Positions 2,401-10,305 of a stretch of 64,000 nucleotides of DNA are shown here, one piece after another. The stretch is from assembly GCF_009914755.1 (NCBI RefSeq), contig NC_060926.1. One strand, given 5' to 3'. The stretch comes from the human T2T-CHM13v2.0 reference genome, Homo sapiens. A model generated the notes under the pieces. That model was not told where the DNA came from, made no database searches, and was given only the letters and a program-made list of their open reading frames with translations. Numbering within the stretch: position 1 is the stretch's first letter; each line of letters starts with the position of its first letter. The position numbers were made by a program, and so were the translations under genes.

Positions 2401-3022
2401 ATGAATTAAAATATGGAAATGGTTTTACTAAAGTTGATAAAAAGCTATAGTTCTAATTCTCTCACCAAGTGTCCATCACTTGGGACCCTCCTGACATCAT
2501 TAGGATCAATAACCAAGGGTTGTTCCTGGACCAATGTCCTTTTTCATTGGTAAATGCCCAAGTCATACCAGTTGCTAAATAAGTAGGACTCATTCCTAAA
2601 TATCCTTTTAAAGGTTTTGTCCAGAAACCAATAGAAAAAAAAACTTAAAAAAAAAACAACAACATCTACTCAGCACTGTTTATTTGCCCAGCACTGTGGC
2701 GTGTTTTTAACCTTATCCTTATTTAATTTTCACAGCAAGACTGTGAAATAAGAATCATTATTTCCATTCTATAAATAAGCAAACTAAGATTCTCAGAGGT
2801 TATGTATCTTGCCTAGTGTTTTCATAATTGTTAAATTCCAGAACAAGAATTCCAAAACAGATCTATGGTCAAATAAATTTGAAAAATAATACAGGTTCTT
2901 TATCCACTTGAAAAAGCATGGATGAAATTGAGCAATGAAAGTTTCTAAAAAGTCCTTCATTAAAGAAAGGTTTAACCCAGTGTATTTGAGATTGGGTCTT
3001 TTTCTTGTTTAATACCTATAAG

Positions 3023-3590
3023 TGTTACAGGACAGGGGTCCCAATCCAGACCCTAAGAGAGGGTTATTGGATTTCTCTCAAGAAAGAATTCAGGGCAAGT
3101 CCTCAAGGCAAAGTGAAAGCATGTTTATTAAGAAAGTAAAGGAATAAAAGAATGTCTGCTCCATAGACAGAGCAGCCCTGAGGGCTGCAGGTTGCCTATT
3201 TTTATGGTTATTTCTTGATGATATGCTCAACAAGGGGTGGATTATTCATGCCTCCCCTTTTTAGACCATATAGGGTAACTTCCTGATGTTGCCATGGCAT
3301 TTGTAAACTGTCATGGCTCTGGTGGGAGTGTAGTAGTGAGGGCGACCAGAGGTCATTCTCATAGACAGTTTAGTTTTGGTGGGTTTTGGCCAGCTCCTTT
3401 CCTGCAACCTGTTTTATCAGCAAGGTCTTTATAACCTGTATTTTGTGCTGACCTCCTATGACTTAGAAAGCCTGTGACTTAGAAAGCCTTAACCATCTAA
3501 CCGTCTGAGAATGCAGCTCAGTAGGTTTCAGCTTCATTTTACCCAGCTCCTATTTAAGATGCAGTTGCTCTGGTTCACACGCCTCTGATA
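3023..3590 (-). mobile_element. MER41A solo LTR (ERV1)
   Basis: tgttacaggacaggggtccc...gcctctgata matches the reverse complement of MER41; lacks the tandem TTCCNGGAA (GAS) block of MER41B; imperfect 4-bp TSD taag/tgag. Confidence 0.85.
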
Positions 3591-3976
3591 TGAGCACTTT
3601 GGCAAACTGATACTTTAATTATATTGGAAGCTGATCCCCACTCTTGACTCATGATAACCAAAATGATGACTCAGAGCTCCACATCATTTCCATGGATGTC
3701 ATTGTTAGGATCCGCTCCTCTTTCCTATCCATGAAAGATATGTTTTGAAACCAAAGCAGGAACTTAAAGTTATCCTTCATATGATACATTTGGTTAAATT
3801 CATGTCATTATCCAGTTTAATAGTATCACAAATTTGCCACCTTATATTGTCACTGTTCTTATTGGTTTAATTCATCTTCAACTGGCTGACCAAATTCTTT
3901 ACATCTTCACCTAGACAATCATAAATGTTAAACACAGAAGAATTGAGGACTACCAGTTTCAGGTCTAATATGTAAA

Positions 3977-4166
3977 TGTCATGCACGTCTGTGTGAAGAG
4001 AGTCCATCAACAGGCTTTGTGTGAGCAACGAGGCTGTTTATTCACTTGGGTGCAAATGGGCTGAGTCCGAGAAAGGAGTCAGCCCACTTGCACCCAAGTG
4101 AATAAACAGCCTTGTTGCTCACACAAAGTCTGTTGGTAGACTCTCTTCACACAGACAGACATGACA
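3977..4166. repeat. 88-bp inverted repeat (hairpin) of LTR R-U5 with 14-nt loop
   Basis: 3977-4064 is the reverse complement of 4079-4166 (80/88 identical by manual alignment). Confidence 0.95.
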
Positions 4167-4168
4167 TT

Positions 4169-4186
4169 TGGTGCCAAAACCCGGGA
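4169..4186 (+). other. tRNA-Phe primer-binding-site copy
   Basis: TGGTGCCAAAACCCGGGA vs complement of tRNA-Phe 3' 18 nt, TGGTGCCGAAACCCGGGA (17/18; the mismatch is at a CpG). Confidence 0.85.
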
Positions 4187-4500
4187 ATAGTCAGGGAAGC
4201 AGAAAATTTAGTTAAAATGTCTCGACCTAATAAGGGAGCTGGGCAGGTGGGGATAACTGAAAAGGAGTGCATAAAAGAATGTTGTCCAAGTTGGCACCAG
4301 AGTTGGGGAGTTTTAAGAGGCTTAGAAGCCTGGTCATCAATACCTACAACAGTTATGGAGGCAAGGGAAACAGGCCCTTGAAAAGAAGGTAATGTGGAGT
4401 GGGTAGCCTCCATATTGATTAAGAAGGAGGTGGACTTACCCTCCACTGTAAGAGTTACCCAAAGCATCTGTGATGGTCCAGGAGGCTTCTGAGGTGATCA
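4187..4500 (-). pseudogene. pro: HERV-H protease remnant
   Basis: ORF 4147..4467: LTVEGK..FLINMEATHSTL...PLLGRDIL; catalytic DTG degenerate. Confidence 0.85.
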
Positions 4501-4505
4501 GGCAG

Positions 4506-5800
4506 CGTCAGTCTTCAGCCGCTAAGCCGAGAAGATCTGGGAAGGAGTCAGTCAGAGAGCCTTGGGCCAGAGTTCCAGGGGCTCTGGGAGTGGCTGCCGG
4601 GTGAGCTGGTTCCAGTGGGTTCCCACACAGATGGGACATGGCTTAGGAGGAATCCCAGGCTGGGCATTCTTTAGCCCAGTGGCCAGATTTCCAGCATTTG
4701 AAGCAAGATCCTGGGGGAGGAGGTCCTGGAGGAATGCCTGGCCACTGTGGTTTAGATGTTTTGAAGTTCTTTTGTGCTGGAGATGTGGCTGGGGTTTCTC
4801 TCTCACACAGCAGAGGCAAGTAATTGTAACTCAGAAATACATTGCTGCTTGGCTGCCTCTTCTCTATTATTGTACACCTTGAAGGAGAGGTTAATTAAGT
4901 CCTATTGTGGGGCTTGAGGCCCGGAATATAATTTTTGGAGTTTTTTCTAACGTTGGGAGCAGATTGGGTAATAAAATGCATATTGAGAATAAGACGGCCT
5001 TCTGGCCCCTCTGGGTCTAGAGCGGTAAAGCATCTAAGGGTTCTTGCCAAACAGGCCATTAACTGGACTAGGTTTTTATATTTGATGAAAAAGAGACTAA
5101 ATGCTAACTGATTTGGGAGAGGCTGGATAAAGAAAAAGGAGCATTAACCTTGACTATGCCTTTAGCTCCAGCCACCTCTCTAAGAGGAAATTGTTGGGCA
5201 GGTTGGGGAGAGCTAGTCACAGAACGAAACTGTAAGCTGGAACAGGTGTGAGGAGGGGAAGTGATAGAAGGATTATAGGGTGAGGGAGCAGAGGCTGAGG
5301 AAGAATTGGGACCTTGCTCGGCCTGGTGAAGAGCAGCCTGGGGAGGCTGGGAGAGGTCAGATGGGTTTGTAGAAAAGGAGGATTCAAAGGACTCAGAGCT
5401 TGGGGTGGAAACTGAAGGAACAGACAGGAGAGAAGGAAGAAAGATTTGGGACAAGTTGCATTGGGAGCAGAGACTAGGGAGGGACCAATGTGTAAAAGAA
5501 TGCCCGGATGTCAAGCACCTCAGACCATTTGCCCATTTTTCGACAAAAATTATCTAGATCTTGTAGGATGGAGAAATCAAAAGTGCCATTTTCTGGTCAT
5601 TTAGAACCATTGTCAAGTTTGTATTGGGGCCAAGCAGTATTGCAGAAGAAAATAAGGCATTTAGGTTTTAGGTCAGGTGTGAGTTGAAGAGGTGTAAGTT
5701 CTTGAGAACACAGGGTAAGGGAGAAGAAGGAGGAATGGAGGGTGGAAGTTTGCCCATAGTTAAAAGGTGAGTTTAGAGAAAAGAGAGGATAGAGACACAG
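4506..5800 (-). pseudogene. gag: HERV-H gag remnant
   Basis: Fragments LIFFCNTAWPQYKLDNGSK, QQFPLREVAGAKGIVKVNAPFSLS, Zn knuckle PCPICVGTHW; frameshifted and deleted. Confidence 0.85.
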
Positions 5801-6186
5801 TGTGGGGGGAGGTGGTCTTGCCACCCAGGGAAGGTGGTACTTGCCACCAAGGTGAAGGATCAAGGCAGGCATCCCCACAGTGATTAAACACCAAGGGAAG
5901 ACTGTCTTCCCAAGTCCATGACTGTTGCCGGAGTTTTGAGTTCATGGATAAAACGTGTCTCCTCTGTCTCTACCAGAAAAGGAAAGGAACCAAAATTAAG
6001 GAAGGGAGAGATTGAAGGGTGGAGGGCTAACAAGACAGGCTGGAGAAGAGAACAAAAAGAGGCCACTTACCTGATTTAAAATTGGTGAGATGTTCCTTTG
6101 GCTGGTCTGAGGACCCAAGGTCATAGGTGATCTCCTCACGGAGTGAGGGTGAGGACCCGGGATGAGTCTCCTGAAGGAGTCCCCTG

Positions 6187-6205
6187 TCCCAGGTCTTTGG
6201 CACCA
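6187..6205 (-). other. Proviral PBS (Phe-like variant TGGTGCCAAAGACCTGGGA)
   Basis: Directly follows the U5 end (..cataaca tt) on the minus strand and precedes the HERV-H leader. Confidence 0.85.
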
Positions 6206-6207
6206 AA

Positions 6208-6612
6208 TGTTATGCATGTCCATGTGAAGAGACCACCAAACAGGCTTTGTGTGAGCAATAAACTTTTTAATCACCTGGGTGCAGGCAAGCTGAATCCAAA
6301 AAAAAGGAGTCAGCAAAGGGAGATAGGGGTGGGACAGTTTTATAGGATTTGGGTAGGTAGTGGAAAATTAGACTTAAAAGGGGTTGTTCTCTTGTGGACA
6401 GGGGCGGGGGTCACAAGGTGCTCAGTGGGGAGCTCCTGAGATTCACTGTCCAGGAGAAGGAATGTGACAAGGCCAATTGATCAGTTCAGGTGGGGCAGTA
6501 ACAAATCACAATGGTGGAATGTCATCAGTTAAGGCAGGAACTGACTATTTTCACTTCTTTTATAGTTCTTCAGTTGCTTCAGGCCACCTGGATGTATATG
6601 TGCAGGTCACAG
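6208..6612 (-). mobile_element. LTR7-family LTR (LTR7C-like), missing first ~35-40 nt of U3
   Basis: Reverse complement of 8184-8588, about 95% identical by eye; TATA box and ATTAAA present. Confidence 0.9.
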
Positions 6613-6638
6613 AGGCTTATTCCAGAAGGAAGGAAAGG

Positions 6639-7985
6639 CAACTTTCTCCTTATGTCAATTCTACCCCCTGCCCCCCAAATATTTGGACCCCTCACCACAC
6701 AAACAACTATCCCTGTTGCTGCTCCTTTATGCATCTCCCAACAATAGCCTACTGGAATCCCTTTAGGCAACCTTCCACCATCCAAATGTTCCTTTACTCT
6801 ATCTCCAGAACCCAGCCACACACATTACCAAACAGATGGGAGTATTCCAACTTTGCATTACTGATGAGCCCTCTATCATTACTGACAAACCAAAAAACAT
6901 TGGCAGTCACTATTGTTTGGAAAGACACTTATCCTCCATCTCCCTCCATCCTTGGCTATCCTCCCCCTGCTCATCTGAATCTCCTCCTATCCCCTCCTCT
7001 TGCTTGCTTATATGCAGCCCCATGAATAGCAGTGAAAGGTTACTCATAGACACTATGTGCTTTCTTATACACCATGGAAACCAAACCTCTCCCTCTATGA
7101 GTTGCACTATCCATCCCCATTACAACCTCTAATGGCTGCTGCCCTTGCTGGAGCTCTAGGATTTTGGGTGCAGGACTCCTCTTTCAGTACACCCTCTCAC
7201 CTTTTCACTTTACATTTCCAGTTCTGCCTGACACAAGGTCTCTTCTTTTATGTGGTTCTTCCACCTACATGCACCTACCTGCCAACTGGATGGGCACATG
7301 TACTCTAGTCTTCCTTACCCCCAAAATCCAGTTTGCAGATAGGAATGAACAACTGCCTGTCCCCCTCATGACACCAACACAACAAAAAGAGTCATCCCAG
7401 TTATCCCTTTACTTGTGGGTCTAGAACTTTTCTGCCTCCACTATTGCACTTGGAACTGGAATAGCAGGCATATCAACTTCTGTCACAACATTCTGCAGCC
7501 TCTATAATGACTTCTCTGCTAGCATTACAGATATATCACAAACTTTATCTGTCCTCCAAGCCCAGGTTGACTCTTTAGCTGCAGTTGTCCTCCAGAACTT
7601 CTGAGGCCTCAATTTACTCACTGCTGAAAAAGGAGGTCTCTGTATGTTTTTAAATGAAGAGTGTTGTTTTTACCTAAAACAATCTGGCCTGGTATATGAC
7701 AACATAAAAAAACTCAAGGATAGAGCCCCAAAACTCGCTAACCAACAAAATAATTATGCTAAACTCCCTTGGGCACTCTCTAATTGGATGTCTTGGGTCC
7801 TCCCAATTCTTAGTCCTTTAATACCTCTTTTTCTCCTTCTCTTATTTGGACCTTGTGTCTTCCGTTTAGTTTCTCAGTTCATACAAAACTGCATTCAGGC
7901 CATCACCAATCATTCTATATGACAAATGCTCCTTCTAACAACCCCACAACACCAACCTTTACCCCAAAATCTTTCTCCAGTTTAA
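6639..7985 (+). pseudogene. env: HERV-H env remnant (C-terminal SU + TM)
   Basis: IFGPLTTQTTIPVAAPLCIS, LPANWMGTCTLVFLTPKIQF, ISU-like LQNF*GLNLLTAEKGGLC, CX6CC (CMFLNEECC), TM LLLLFGPC; stops and frameshifts. Confidence 0.92.
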
Positions 7986-8146
7986 TCTCTCCCACTCTAG
8001 GTTCCCATGCTGCCCCTAATCCCACCTGAAGCAGCCCTGAGAAACATCACCCATTATCTCTCCATACCATCCCCCAAAATTTTCACCACCCCAACACTTC
8101 ACCACTACTTTGTTTTGTTTTTCTTATTAACATAAGAAGACAGGAA

Positions 8147-8588
8147 TTTCAGGCCTCTGAGCCCTAGCTAAGCCATCATATCCCCTGTGACCTGCACATA
8201 TATATCCAGATGGCCTGAAGCAACTGAAGAACCACAAAAGAAGTGAAAATAGCCAGTTCCTGCCTTAACTGATGACATTCCACCATTGTGATTTGTTCCT
8301 GCCCCACCCTAACTGATCAATTGACCTTGTCACATTCCTTCTCCTGGACAGTGAATCTCAGGAGCTCCCCACTGAGCACCTTGTGACCCCTGCCCCTGCC
8401 CACAAGAGAACAACCCCCTTTAAGTCTAATTTTCCACTACCTACCCACATCCCATAAAACTGCCCCACTCCTATCTCCCTTTGCTGACTCCTTTTTTGGA
8501 TTCAGACTGCCTGCACCCAGGTGATTAAAAAGCTTTATTGCTCACACAAAGCCTGTGTGGTGGTCTCTTCACATGGACGCACATAACA
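8147..8588 (+). mobile_element. 3' LTR7-family LTR (LTR7C-like), preceded by PPT
   Basis: PPT aagaagacaggaa 8134-8146; tttcaggcctctgagccc...cataaca. Confidence 0.92.
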
Positions 8589-10305
8589 GTAATCAGATGA
8601 GAAGTCACCACTTCCATTCCTACAATAACAACAACAAGCTAGATAAACAAAAACAATGACTTTTCTTGGACCCATCAAATAACTGAAGTTTCAGGGCAAA
8701 ACACTACCCCAAATTTGGAGAGACAGGTGTATCTAGAGACACAGGTGGGATCTGCTTACGTGGAAAAGAAGCTGCTGGGATCTACTTACCTGGAAAAGAA
8801 GGTGCTGGAGCCATAAATTGTTAGGAGCATTTACATGGTAATGTTGGCAAATTGCTGGAGGCTGTGTGTGGACTCATGTGAGAAAAAAAGCTCAGGGGGG
8901 CCACCGTTCTAAGGGTACCCTCACACATTTGTGAGCTTTACCTCCAAGAACATGGCCAAATTCTCATAGTAAGGATGTGAGAAAGATCCTTCCCTGGATT
9001 TGGCAGGAAAAGAGGATGAAATCCCCTTGGAGAGTTCTCCATAACAAAGGCCTACTTTGCAGGGTGAAAGACTTTCCCAGAGCCTTATTCCAGAAGGAAG
9101 GGAGGAAAGGCATTCCTCTCTCTCCCCTGTCTTCTCTAGCTTTCTAGTCCCCACTAAGGGAAAAATTTAAAAGCTATGCCACTGGAGAAACACTTGTGAA
9201 GCTGACAGTTCAGAAACATGCCCCCAACCCCCACAAAAGATGGAGTTTTAACAAGATTATGGAATGCTTCTACCTCCCAGAACCTTCTCACCTCAGCAAT
9301 AGGGCTCCCGTATGACAGTGGATTACAGTTGAAAAATCTGCAAAACAGAGATTCTGAGAAGTACTTAGGGAAGCCTAAAGTCAAGGTGAGAGACAAAATT
9401 AAGGAAGAATCTGAAGCTTCTGACATCCACACCAATAGCAAACAGTAAACATAGCCCAGCACTTAGCCAGATTAACATAAATCCTCACAATAAAGGCCTA
9501 CTTGCCTATTTGTCTATTTTCCTCTCTGGTTTGAACAAAAAATTACAAAGCAGGCCAAGAAAAAACAAACACACACAGTCTAAGGAAACAAAGCAATCAC
9601 GAGAATCAGGCTCAGCTATGACACAGATGATGATATGATCAGACATGGAATTTACAATATCATAACTATAATTAATACGTTAAGGGCTTTAATAGAAAAA
9701 GTAGACAACATGAAAGAAGAGATGAGTAAAGTAAGCAGCGAGATGGAAACTCTAAGAATCAAAACAGATGATCAAAATAAAAAACAAAGACAGCTGAGAA
9801 AAAAACTATCAGTGAGATTGAAGATCATCAATAGCAAACTGAAATGCAAAGAGAAAAAAAGAATTTTTTAAAAATCACATATCCGCTAAGAACTGTAAAC
9901 AATTTTAAAAGCTATAACATACATGTAATTGGAATATCAGAAGGAAAAAATTAAAGAGAACAGAGAAAAAGAAATAGCTGAAGTAGTAATGGTTAAAAAC
10001 TTTCCAAAATTAATGACAGTCACCACATCACAAATTCAGGAATATCAGAGAATATCAAGCCAAATAAATACCAAAAACAAAACTAACTGCAGAAAACCAG
10101 ACACGAAGAAAATATTATGAAAGAAGCTAGAGGGGGAGAAAACTTTGCCTTAGATGAATGAAAATAACAATTATAATAGACTTCTCATCAGAAACTATAT
10201 AAACAAAAGGACAGTAGCATAAAATATTTAAAGTCTTGAAAGCAAAAAAACCCAACAAGCTTGAATTCTATATCCAGTCAAATTGTCCTTCCAAAGTGAA
10301 GGAGA

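What the first reader, a model, noticed from the sequence alone, without database searches (positions are those of the whole stretch)
6610..6640. Inversion junction contains a ~30-nt filler templated from flanking DNA about 2.5 kb downstream
Seen: between the truncated antisense U3 and sense env lies CAGAGGCTTATTCCAGAAGGAAGG----AAAGGCA. This matches 9078-9112 (CAGAGCCTTATTCCAGAAGGAAGGGAGGAAAGGCA) in the host L1 with one mismatch and a 4-nt gap, overlapping the LTR by CAG and env by CA. Known: templated inserts with microhomology are signatures of Pol theta-mediated end joining or MMBIR. Inference: this junction formed in the chromosome during or after integration, probably by trimming the centre of a longer unstable inverted repeat.
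Basis: partly seen in the sequence, partly recalled or inferred. Interest (0 to 1): 0.7.

Follow-up and report, generated by a model that had tools for sequence, protein, structure and literature searches.

The report
Host-DNA patch inside a two-piece provirus
A scrambled ancient retrovirus copy in the human genome is joined in its middle by a 31-base patch that matches only the chromosome 2.5 kb away, likely because host repair fused two viral DNA pieces that had each been inserted by one end.

Summary
Observation confirmed. The filler 6610-6640 matches 9078-9112 at 30 of 31 bases with one 4-nt gap. Its 24-mer has 2 matches within 2 mismatches in the whole genome, itself and that donor. It is not native HERV-H, and 19 paralogous L1 copies match at only 20-24 of 31. 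Overlaps are CAG with the LTR and GGCA (not CA) with env. So the junction formed on this chromosome, at or after integration. The whole element (3977-8588) has U5 ends at both termini, a 5-bp target duplication and no host loss. Its left end is an R-U5 fold-back that turns at the RNA 5' end, as expected of self-primed strong-stop DNA. Two other human HERV-H copies have such ends with perfect 5-bp duplications. Best model (0.5): two viral DNAs were each inserted by one U5 end, and host repair, probably Pol theta, joined the free ends. Known processes in an unusual combination; interest 0.45.

The parts
6610..6640 (+). Templated filler. 6610-6612 overlaps the LTR, 6637-6640 overlaps env, net insert 24 nt (6613-6636).
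9078..9112 (+). Donor of the filler, in the 5' region of an old L1-type repeat, 490 bp beyond the element's right end and in the same orientation as the filler.
3972..3976 (+). Left copy of the 5-bp target duplication (GTAAA).
8589..8593 (+). Right copy of the target duplication (GTAAT, 4 of 5).
   Evidence: both copies stack on the same five columns of uninterrupted L1 paralogues
3977..4166 (.). R-U5 fold-back (antisense U5-R, then sense R-U5), arms about 90 nt, apex 4058-4085; LTR type differs from the other two LTRs (78-80%).
4169..4186 (+). 18-nt primer-binding-site sequence, 17 of 18 complementary to the 3' end of tRNA-Phe (gene plus CCA); its last 3-7 nt overlap antisense pro.
4187..6186 (-). 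Antisense leader-gag-pro of HERV-H, broken by stops; ends within pro.
   Evidence: PF00077, PF00098, PF02093
6187..6205 (-). Primer-binding site of the antisense arm (19-nt form).
6208..6612 (-). Antisense 5' LTR lacking the first 35-38 nt of U3.
6637..8146 (+). Sense env fragment, broken by stops.
   Evidence: PF00429
8147..8588 (+). Sense 3' LTR; 22 of 403 columns differ from the antisense LTR.
3945..3971 (+). First bases of the host L1, left of the insertion, continuous with 8594 onward.

Best explanation
The 31-base filler is a copy of host DNA at 9078-9112 that joins two HERV-H pieces, and it was likely laid down by host end-joining, probably Pol theta, after two viral DNAs had likely each been inserted by one U5 end at the same site. 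Shown: filler and donor match; short overlaps at both ends; U5 ends at both outer termini; a 5-bp target duplication with no host loss; a fold-back that turns at the start of R. Inferred: (1) a strong-stop DNA from a second HERV-H RNA folded on its R hairpin and copied R, U5 and 18 nt of the tRNA primer; (2) its 3' end misprimed in pro and was extended through gag and the 5' LTR, giving piece A (3977-6612 plus the lost U3 tip); (3) piece B carried env and the 3' LTR; (4) integrase inserted A's left and B's right U5 end 5 bp apart, leaving the chromosome open between A's U3 end and B; (5) A's 3' end lost 35-38 nt, primed at CAG on the strand of the right-hand end, copied 31-35 nt, let go and annealed to env at GGCA. 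It is a one-off repair scar with no sign of function.
For: Donor unique in the genome and absent from HERV-H copies. Overlaps of 3 and 4 nt; chance of both about 8e-4 at even base use. Direct orientation is what priming on the opposite end's strand gives (PMC12426944, passages). Left flank continues into right flank in L1 paralogues: summed score 326 over 15 of 19 loci against a shuffled maximum of 220. The two LTRs share 4 rare states; each of 17 other LTRs shares 0-2 with the 3' LTR. The arms do not overlap on six relatives; 2.8-3.9 kb lies between them. 17 of 19 other fetched pattern hits are HERV-H copies whose LTR sequence stops at this same R start (read by eye), and the strand's 3' end folds there (z -3.5). 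Both other long fold-backs found carry perfect 5-bp duplications, one with U5 at both ends. Templates near the opposite junction are reported for Pol theta-dependent random integration (PMC5508229, passages). A free viral 3' end primes host synthesis on nearby DNA (PMC5041404, Discussion).
Against: Nothing dates the junction to the integration: 1 difference in 31 has a 95% interval of 0.08-16.7%, against 5.5% between LTRs. The donor is 2.47 kb from the junction, so long resection or a loop is needed; the review read describes templates flanking the break and inserts generally under 25 bp. Shared LTR states could also come from two virions of one parent or from gene conversion, and identity alone (94.5%) barely exceeds the best other LTRs (93.5%). 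The tRNA-like form of the primer site is not diagnostic: 20 of 58 matches to the two patterns have it. One base of the target duplication differs (chance of 4 of 5 about 2%). In the two other fold-backs the loop reads in the opposite sense to this one, so their route may differ. The polymerase cannot be read from sequence.
Confidence: 0.5

Rival explanations
1. One reading: piece A and a full-length viral DNA were joined U3 to U3 before integration, forming a palindrome with arms of about 2.4 kb. A later break at its centre removed 35-38 nt on the left and about 6 kb on the right, and repair added the filler.
For: The junction lies 35-38 nt from where the symmetry centre would be. Long spacerless palindromes are break-prone (PMC7999016, passages). 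Such a molecule would also have two U5 ends and a 5-bp duplication.
Against: It needs an extra ligation and a second copy of LTR-gag-pro of which nothing remains. The deletion would run about 4 kb past the arm. The passages read did not describe central trimming in mammals; that part is recalled.
Confidence: 0.22
2. A and a longer B were joined without a palindrome at integration. The present junction is a later, ordinary deletion with a templated insert, made by break repair or a replication template switch (MMBIR/FoSTeS).
For: Filler divergence cannot date the event. Template switches over kilobases with microhomology are typical of MMBIR (recalled).
Against: A later break should fall anywhere, yet it falls 35-38 nt from a natural viral DNA end. 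It needs two events where one suffices.
Confidence: 0.15
3. The spacer between the inverted LTRs (6613-8184) flipped by recombination after the junction formed. The first form was env-LTR-gag-pro in one run plus a lone clipped LTR, whose 3' end folded back about 0.9 kb onto the donor.
For: Inverted 405-bp repeats can invert their spacer (recalled). The priming distance would be shorter, and env-LTR-gag is the order in a one-LTR circle.
Against: No sequence evidence for a flip; it adds a step.
Confidence: 0.08
4. Reverse transcriptase captured the filler from a co-packaged cellular RNA or another L1 copy before integration, or the match is chance.
For: The other junctions of the element look like reverse-transcriptase switches. 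The DNA search scored a limited set of paralogues (26 candidates).
Against: The only other genomic match within 2 mismatches lies 490 bp from the integration site; paralogues match 20-24 of 31; shuffles never approach it.
Confidence: 0.02

Closest known systems
Pol theta-mediated templated insertions (TMEJ), including those at random integration sites (PMC5508229, PMC12426944; passages)
   Same: Short insert copied from linked DNA, 2-6 nt microhomology, template near the opposite junction of an integrated DNA.
   Different: Here the junction is virus to virus inside an integrase-made insertion, the template is 2.47 kb from the junction, and POLQ dependence cannot be tested.
Aberrant one-ended retroviral integrations of ASLV and HIV-1 (PMC5041404, Discussion read; HERV-K cases in PMC4422153, passages)
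   Same: A free viral 3' end is clipped, primes on nearby host DNA through a short homology and can switch templates.
   Different: There the host-made joint is an outer junction and the normal short duplication is lost. Here both outer ends look integrase-made with a 5-bp duplication, and the host-made joint is internal.
Self-primed minus-strand strong-stop DNA of HIV-1 (PMC4668388, passages)
   Same: Fold-back at a hairpin in R, copying back through U5 into the primer.
   Different: Described there as abortive products in vitro; here the fold-back is the integrated end of germ-line proviruses at three loci.
Two-donor concerted integration in vitro (recalled, no call)
   Same: Two separate DNAs each give one U5 end and yield the correct target duplication.
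   Different: In a chromosome this leaves a break that must be repaired; this locus would be such a repaired product.

Membership tests
TMEJ templated insertion | Insert copied from DNA linked to the break | tested here: met
TMEJ templated insertion | 2-6 nt microhomology at the joins | tested here: met
   CAG on the left; GGCA on the right in 12 of 17 close env copies
TMEJ templated insertion | Short insert, generally under 25 nt | tested here: met
   Net insert 24 nt; size range
TMEJ templated insertion | Template flanking the break | tested here: inconclusive
   2468 bp away now, 490 bp from the opposite junction; that class is reported in PMC5508229, distances not seen
TMEJ templated insertion | Dependence on POLQ | not testable with these tools
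   Ancient event
Aberrant one-ended retroviral integration | Clipped viral end joined through short homology to appended host sequence | tested here: met
   U3 end lacks 35-38 nt and overlaps the donor by CAG
Aberrant one-ended retroviral integration | One outer junction host-made, with host duplication, deletion or inversion in place of the short duplication | tested here: not met
   Both outer ends are intact U5 ends in a 5-bp duplication without host loss; works like this class, not filed in it
Self-primed strong-stop DNA | Turn at the 5' end of the viral RNA | tested here: met
   17 of 19 fetched pattern hits stop at the same R start; indirect, and the pattern selected for them
Self-primed strong-stop DNA | 3'-terminal hairpin able to prime | tested here: met
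   Predicted fold, -8.4 kcal/mol, 1 of 200 shuffles as good
Self-primed strong-stop DNA | Copy of 18 nt of the tRNA primer after U5 | tested here: inconclusive
   17 of 18 to tRNA-Phe, ending at nt 18, but 20 of 58 genomic sites have this form
HERV-H provirus (Phe-primed subgroup) | LTR, primer site, gag, pro and env homologous to HERV-H copies | tested here: met
Centre-trimmed palindrome | A precursor with longer arms | not testable with these tools
   No primate orthologues available

The most novel reading that the evidence does not exclude
This locus is a germ-line record of two-donor concerted integration in vivo: integrase paired U5 ends of two separate DNAs from one mixed virion, broke the chromosome, and Pol theta sealed it with a local template. 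Self-primed strong-stop DNA, held to be a dead end, recurrently supplied integrase-competent ends in HERV-H (three loci so far).
Probability: 0.4. Interest if true: 0.7.

Novelty: new variant of a known kind. Interest (0 to 1): 0.45.

Why it matters
The filler alone is an ordinary repair scar. Its value is as a marker: it shows that a junction between two viral pieces was made on the chromosome, while both outer ends look integrase-made. If the best model holds, aberrant reverse-transcription products can be integrated in pairs and rescued by host repair, a route to rearranged proviruses that keeps a normal target duplication and would pass as a clean insertion. The three fold-back ends give a searchable signature for counting such events across endogenous retroviruses and in long-read data of vector or HIV proviruses. 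No function is implied for the locus.

Tried and rejected
Native HERV-H origin of the filler: rejected. Equal match to other L1 copies: rejected for 19 paralogues and by the genome-wide pattern. A second copy of this junction elsewhere: none among 40 scored candidates. Host fillers at the other junctions (4055-4100, 4165-4215, both outer ends): only LTR matches and hits of 12 nt or less. Simple in-place inversion of a normal provirus: rejected, since it would leave the U3 tip at the left end, where a U5 end of another LTR type stands. LTR identity as proof of sisterhood: too weak alone. Primer-site form as proof of tRNA copying: not diagnostic. Dating by filler divergence: uninformative. C9:98.03 Mb as a second example: it is a different rearrangement with U3 at both ends. 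Which copy changed at the 4-nt gap: unresolved; 10 of 19 paralogues span 30 nt (range 27-37), the filler 31, the donor 35, which leans to a later insertion in the donor, but slippage at a shared AGG explains it too. L1 ORF1 by Pfam: only sub-threshold hits. Literature searches (listings only) showed no description of this locus or of fold-back-ended HERV-H; subscription papers and supplements were not seen.

Full report
The observation. The sequence at 6610-6640 aligns to 9078-9112 at 30 of 31 bases with one 4-nt gap. Its first 24 nt have exactly two matches within two mismatches in the 3.1-Gb genome, the filler and the donor 2468 bp downstream; the reversed control has none. Window shuffles give no match, and shuffled cores score at most 28 against 37 observed. 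Other HERV-H copies match the LTR side or the env side of the junction but none spans it (40 of 675 candidates scored), and nine LTR and 19 env loci show unrelated sequence where the filler lies. Nineteen paralogues of the donor repeat, of 26 candidates found, match the filler at 20-24 of 31. The donor is native to that repeat, since the paralogues have the homologous stretch, so copying ran from 9078 to 6610.

The joins. On the left the LTR and donor share CAG, and 5 of 6 bases with one mismatch. The LTR lacks the first 35-38 nt of U3. On the right the filler ends in GGCA, which 12 of 17 close env copies have at that position. At even base use the chance of both overlaps is about 8e-4. The single substitution is what age predicts: the LTRs differ at 22 of 403 columns, and P of at most 1 difference in 31 is 0.49. 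The 4-nt gap is unresolved: it may be slippage at a shared AGG during synthesis, or a later insertion in the donor, as 10 of 19 paralogues span 30 nt, the filler 31 and the donor 35.

The whole element. It spans 3977-8588. From the left: antisense U5-R, sense R-U5 and a primer site (3977-4186); antisense pro, gag, leader, primer site and LTR (4187-6612); filler; sense env and LTR (6637-8588). Against six relatives the two long arms do not overlap, and 2.8-3.9 kb of pro-pol-env is absent. Both outer ends are U5 ends. The flanks GTAAA and GTAAT stack on the same five columns of uninterrupted L1 paralogues, and the left flank continues into the right: summed score 326 over 15 loci against a shuffled maximum of 220; 4 of 19 loci were left out for lack of the homologous stretch, and individually 7 of 15 reached p under 0.01. 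So the outer ends were set in one event with a 5-bp duplication and no host loss. The two long LTRs share 4 states rare in 17 other LTRs, which share 0-2 with the 3' LTR, though identity alone barely separates them from the best others. K2P distance is 0.057, roughly 13-25 million years on recalled rates.

The left end. The fold-back is only 78-80% identical to the other two LTRs and 89-93% to other copies in the genome, so it came from a different HERV-H template. A pattern for its apex gave 24 sites. Three are long fold-backs: this one, C1:53.315 Mb and C3:90.149 Mb. Of the other 21, 19 were fetched: 17 are copies whose LTR sequence stops at this same point, the start of R, and 2 are point variants in whole LTRs (read by eye); 2 that did not look like LTRs were not fetched. 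The turn therefore lies at the likely 5' end of the viral RNA, where the strand's 3' end is predicted to fold. After U5 come 18 nt complementary to tRNA-Phe at 17 positions, then antisense pro with an overlap of 3 exact bases in six relatives and up to 7 in others. This is the anatomy of self-primed strong-stop DNA, known for HIV-1 in vitro (PMC4668388, passages). The primer-site form is not proof, as 20 of 58 genomic matches have it. Both other fold-back elements have perfect 5-bp duplications, TTCTC and GTGAT, and the C1 element has U5 at both ends. Fold-back ends were thus present before integration and accepted by integrase. Their loops read in the opposite sense to this one, so their route may differ.

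How it most likely arose. The donor lies 490 bp outside the element, so the filler junction was made when env was already tied to this chromosome: that step is as good as shown. The simplest history that also explains the ends is that two DNAs from one reverse-transcription complex each gave a U5 end to a concerted insertion, leaving A's U3 end and B's internal end free. A's 3' end was clipped, primed on the right-hand end's strand at CAG, copied about 30 nt and re-annealed at GGCA. The direct orientation fits the model of extension on the opposite end followed by dissociation (PMC12426944, passages). Templates near the opposite junction occur in Pol theta-dependent integration of transfected DNA (PMC5508229, passages), and free retroviral 3' ends prime host synthesis on nearby DNA (PMC5041404, Discussion read whole). 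These steps are inferred. I give the model 0.5, later collapse of a U3-to-U3 palindrome 0.22, a later ordinary deletion 0.15, a flipped spacer 0.08 and capture before integration or chance 0.02. Against the best model: the 2.47-kb reach is long, nothing dates the junction (95% interval 0.08-16.7%), and the enzyme is unknowable from sequence.

Comparison and novelty. The filler meets the sequence features of a TMEJ templated insertion, with template distance inconclusive and POLQ dependence untestable. It works like the one-ended aberrant integrations of ASLV and HIV-1, also noted for HERV-K (PMC4422153, passages), but fails their defining loss of the short duplication, so it is not filed there. 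Searches, seen as listings, showed no account of this locus or of fold-back-ended HERV-H; most subscription papers are not in the library and no supplements were read. HERV-H background was checked in passages of PMC12228294 and palindrome instability in passages of PMC7999016. Verdict: real, locus-specific, made of known processes in an unusual combination; new variant of a known kind; interest 0.45.

Noticed in passing
L061 337-901 and L095 1-1816 (G000:C1:53315036-53317415): A 2.4-kb HERV-H with a U5-R fold-back in place of U3 at its 5' end, U5 at both termini and a perfect GTGAT duplication.
   Followed up: yes
L094 7264-8701 and L062 1-501 (G000:C3:90147763-90149650): A 1.9-kb HERV-H: sense LTR, switch to antisense gag-leader-U5-R, fold-back into R-U5, perfect TTCTC duplication.
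   Followed up: yes
L073-L091: 17 of 19 are U3-less HERV-H copies that begin at the start of R with one extra G, as L1-made processed copies of capped RNA would; the pattern selected for that G.
   Followed up: partly
L093 111-4119 (G000:C9:98031410-98035418): A rearranged HERV-H with U3 starts at both ends, an inverted leader-U5-U3 piece with an internal deletion, and antisense pol to its left.
   Followed up: partly
window 5076-5083: A gap of about 340 bp in gag relative to six relatives; L093 has a gap at the same place, so it is probably inherited.
   Followed up: partly
G000:C1:226021816 and 226026276: Two U5-primer-site junctions in the same orientation 4.5 kb apart, a possible tandem provirus.
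   Followed up: no
window 8650-9502: The RefSeq enhancer listed in the gene table covers the donor and the L1 5' region; no link to the filler was sought.
   Followed up: no
window 3020-3590: An unmasked stretch that looks like another LTR-type repeat (recalled resemblance) just left of the L1 start.
   Followed up: no
window 3977-6300: The HERV-H element is absent from the list of longest masked repeats in the gene table except 8025-8325, so repeat masking in that file seems to miss most of it.
   Followed up: no
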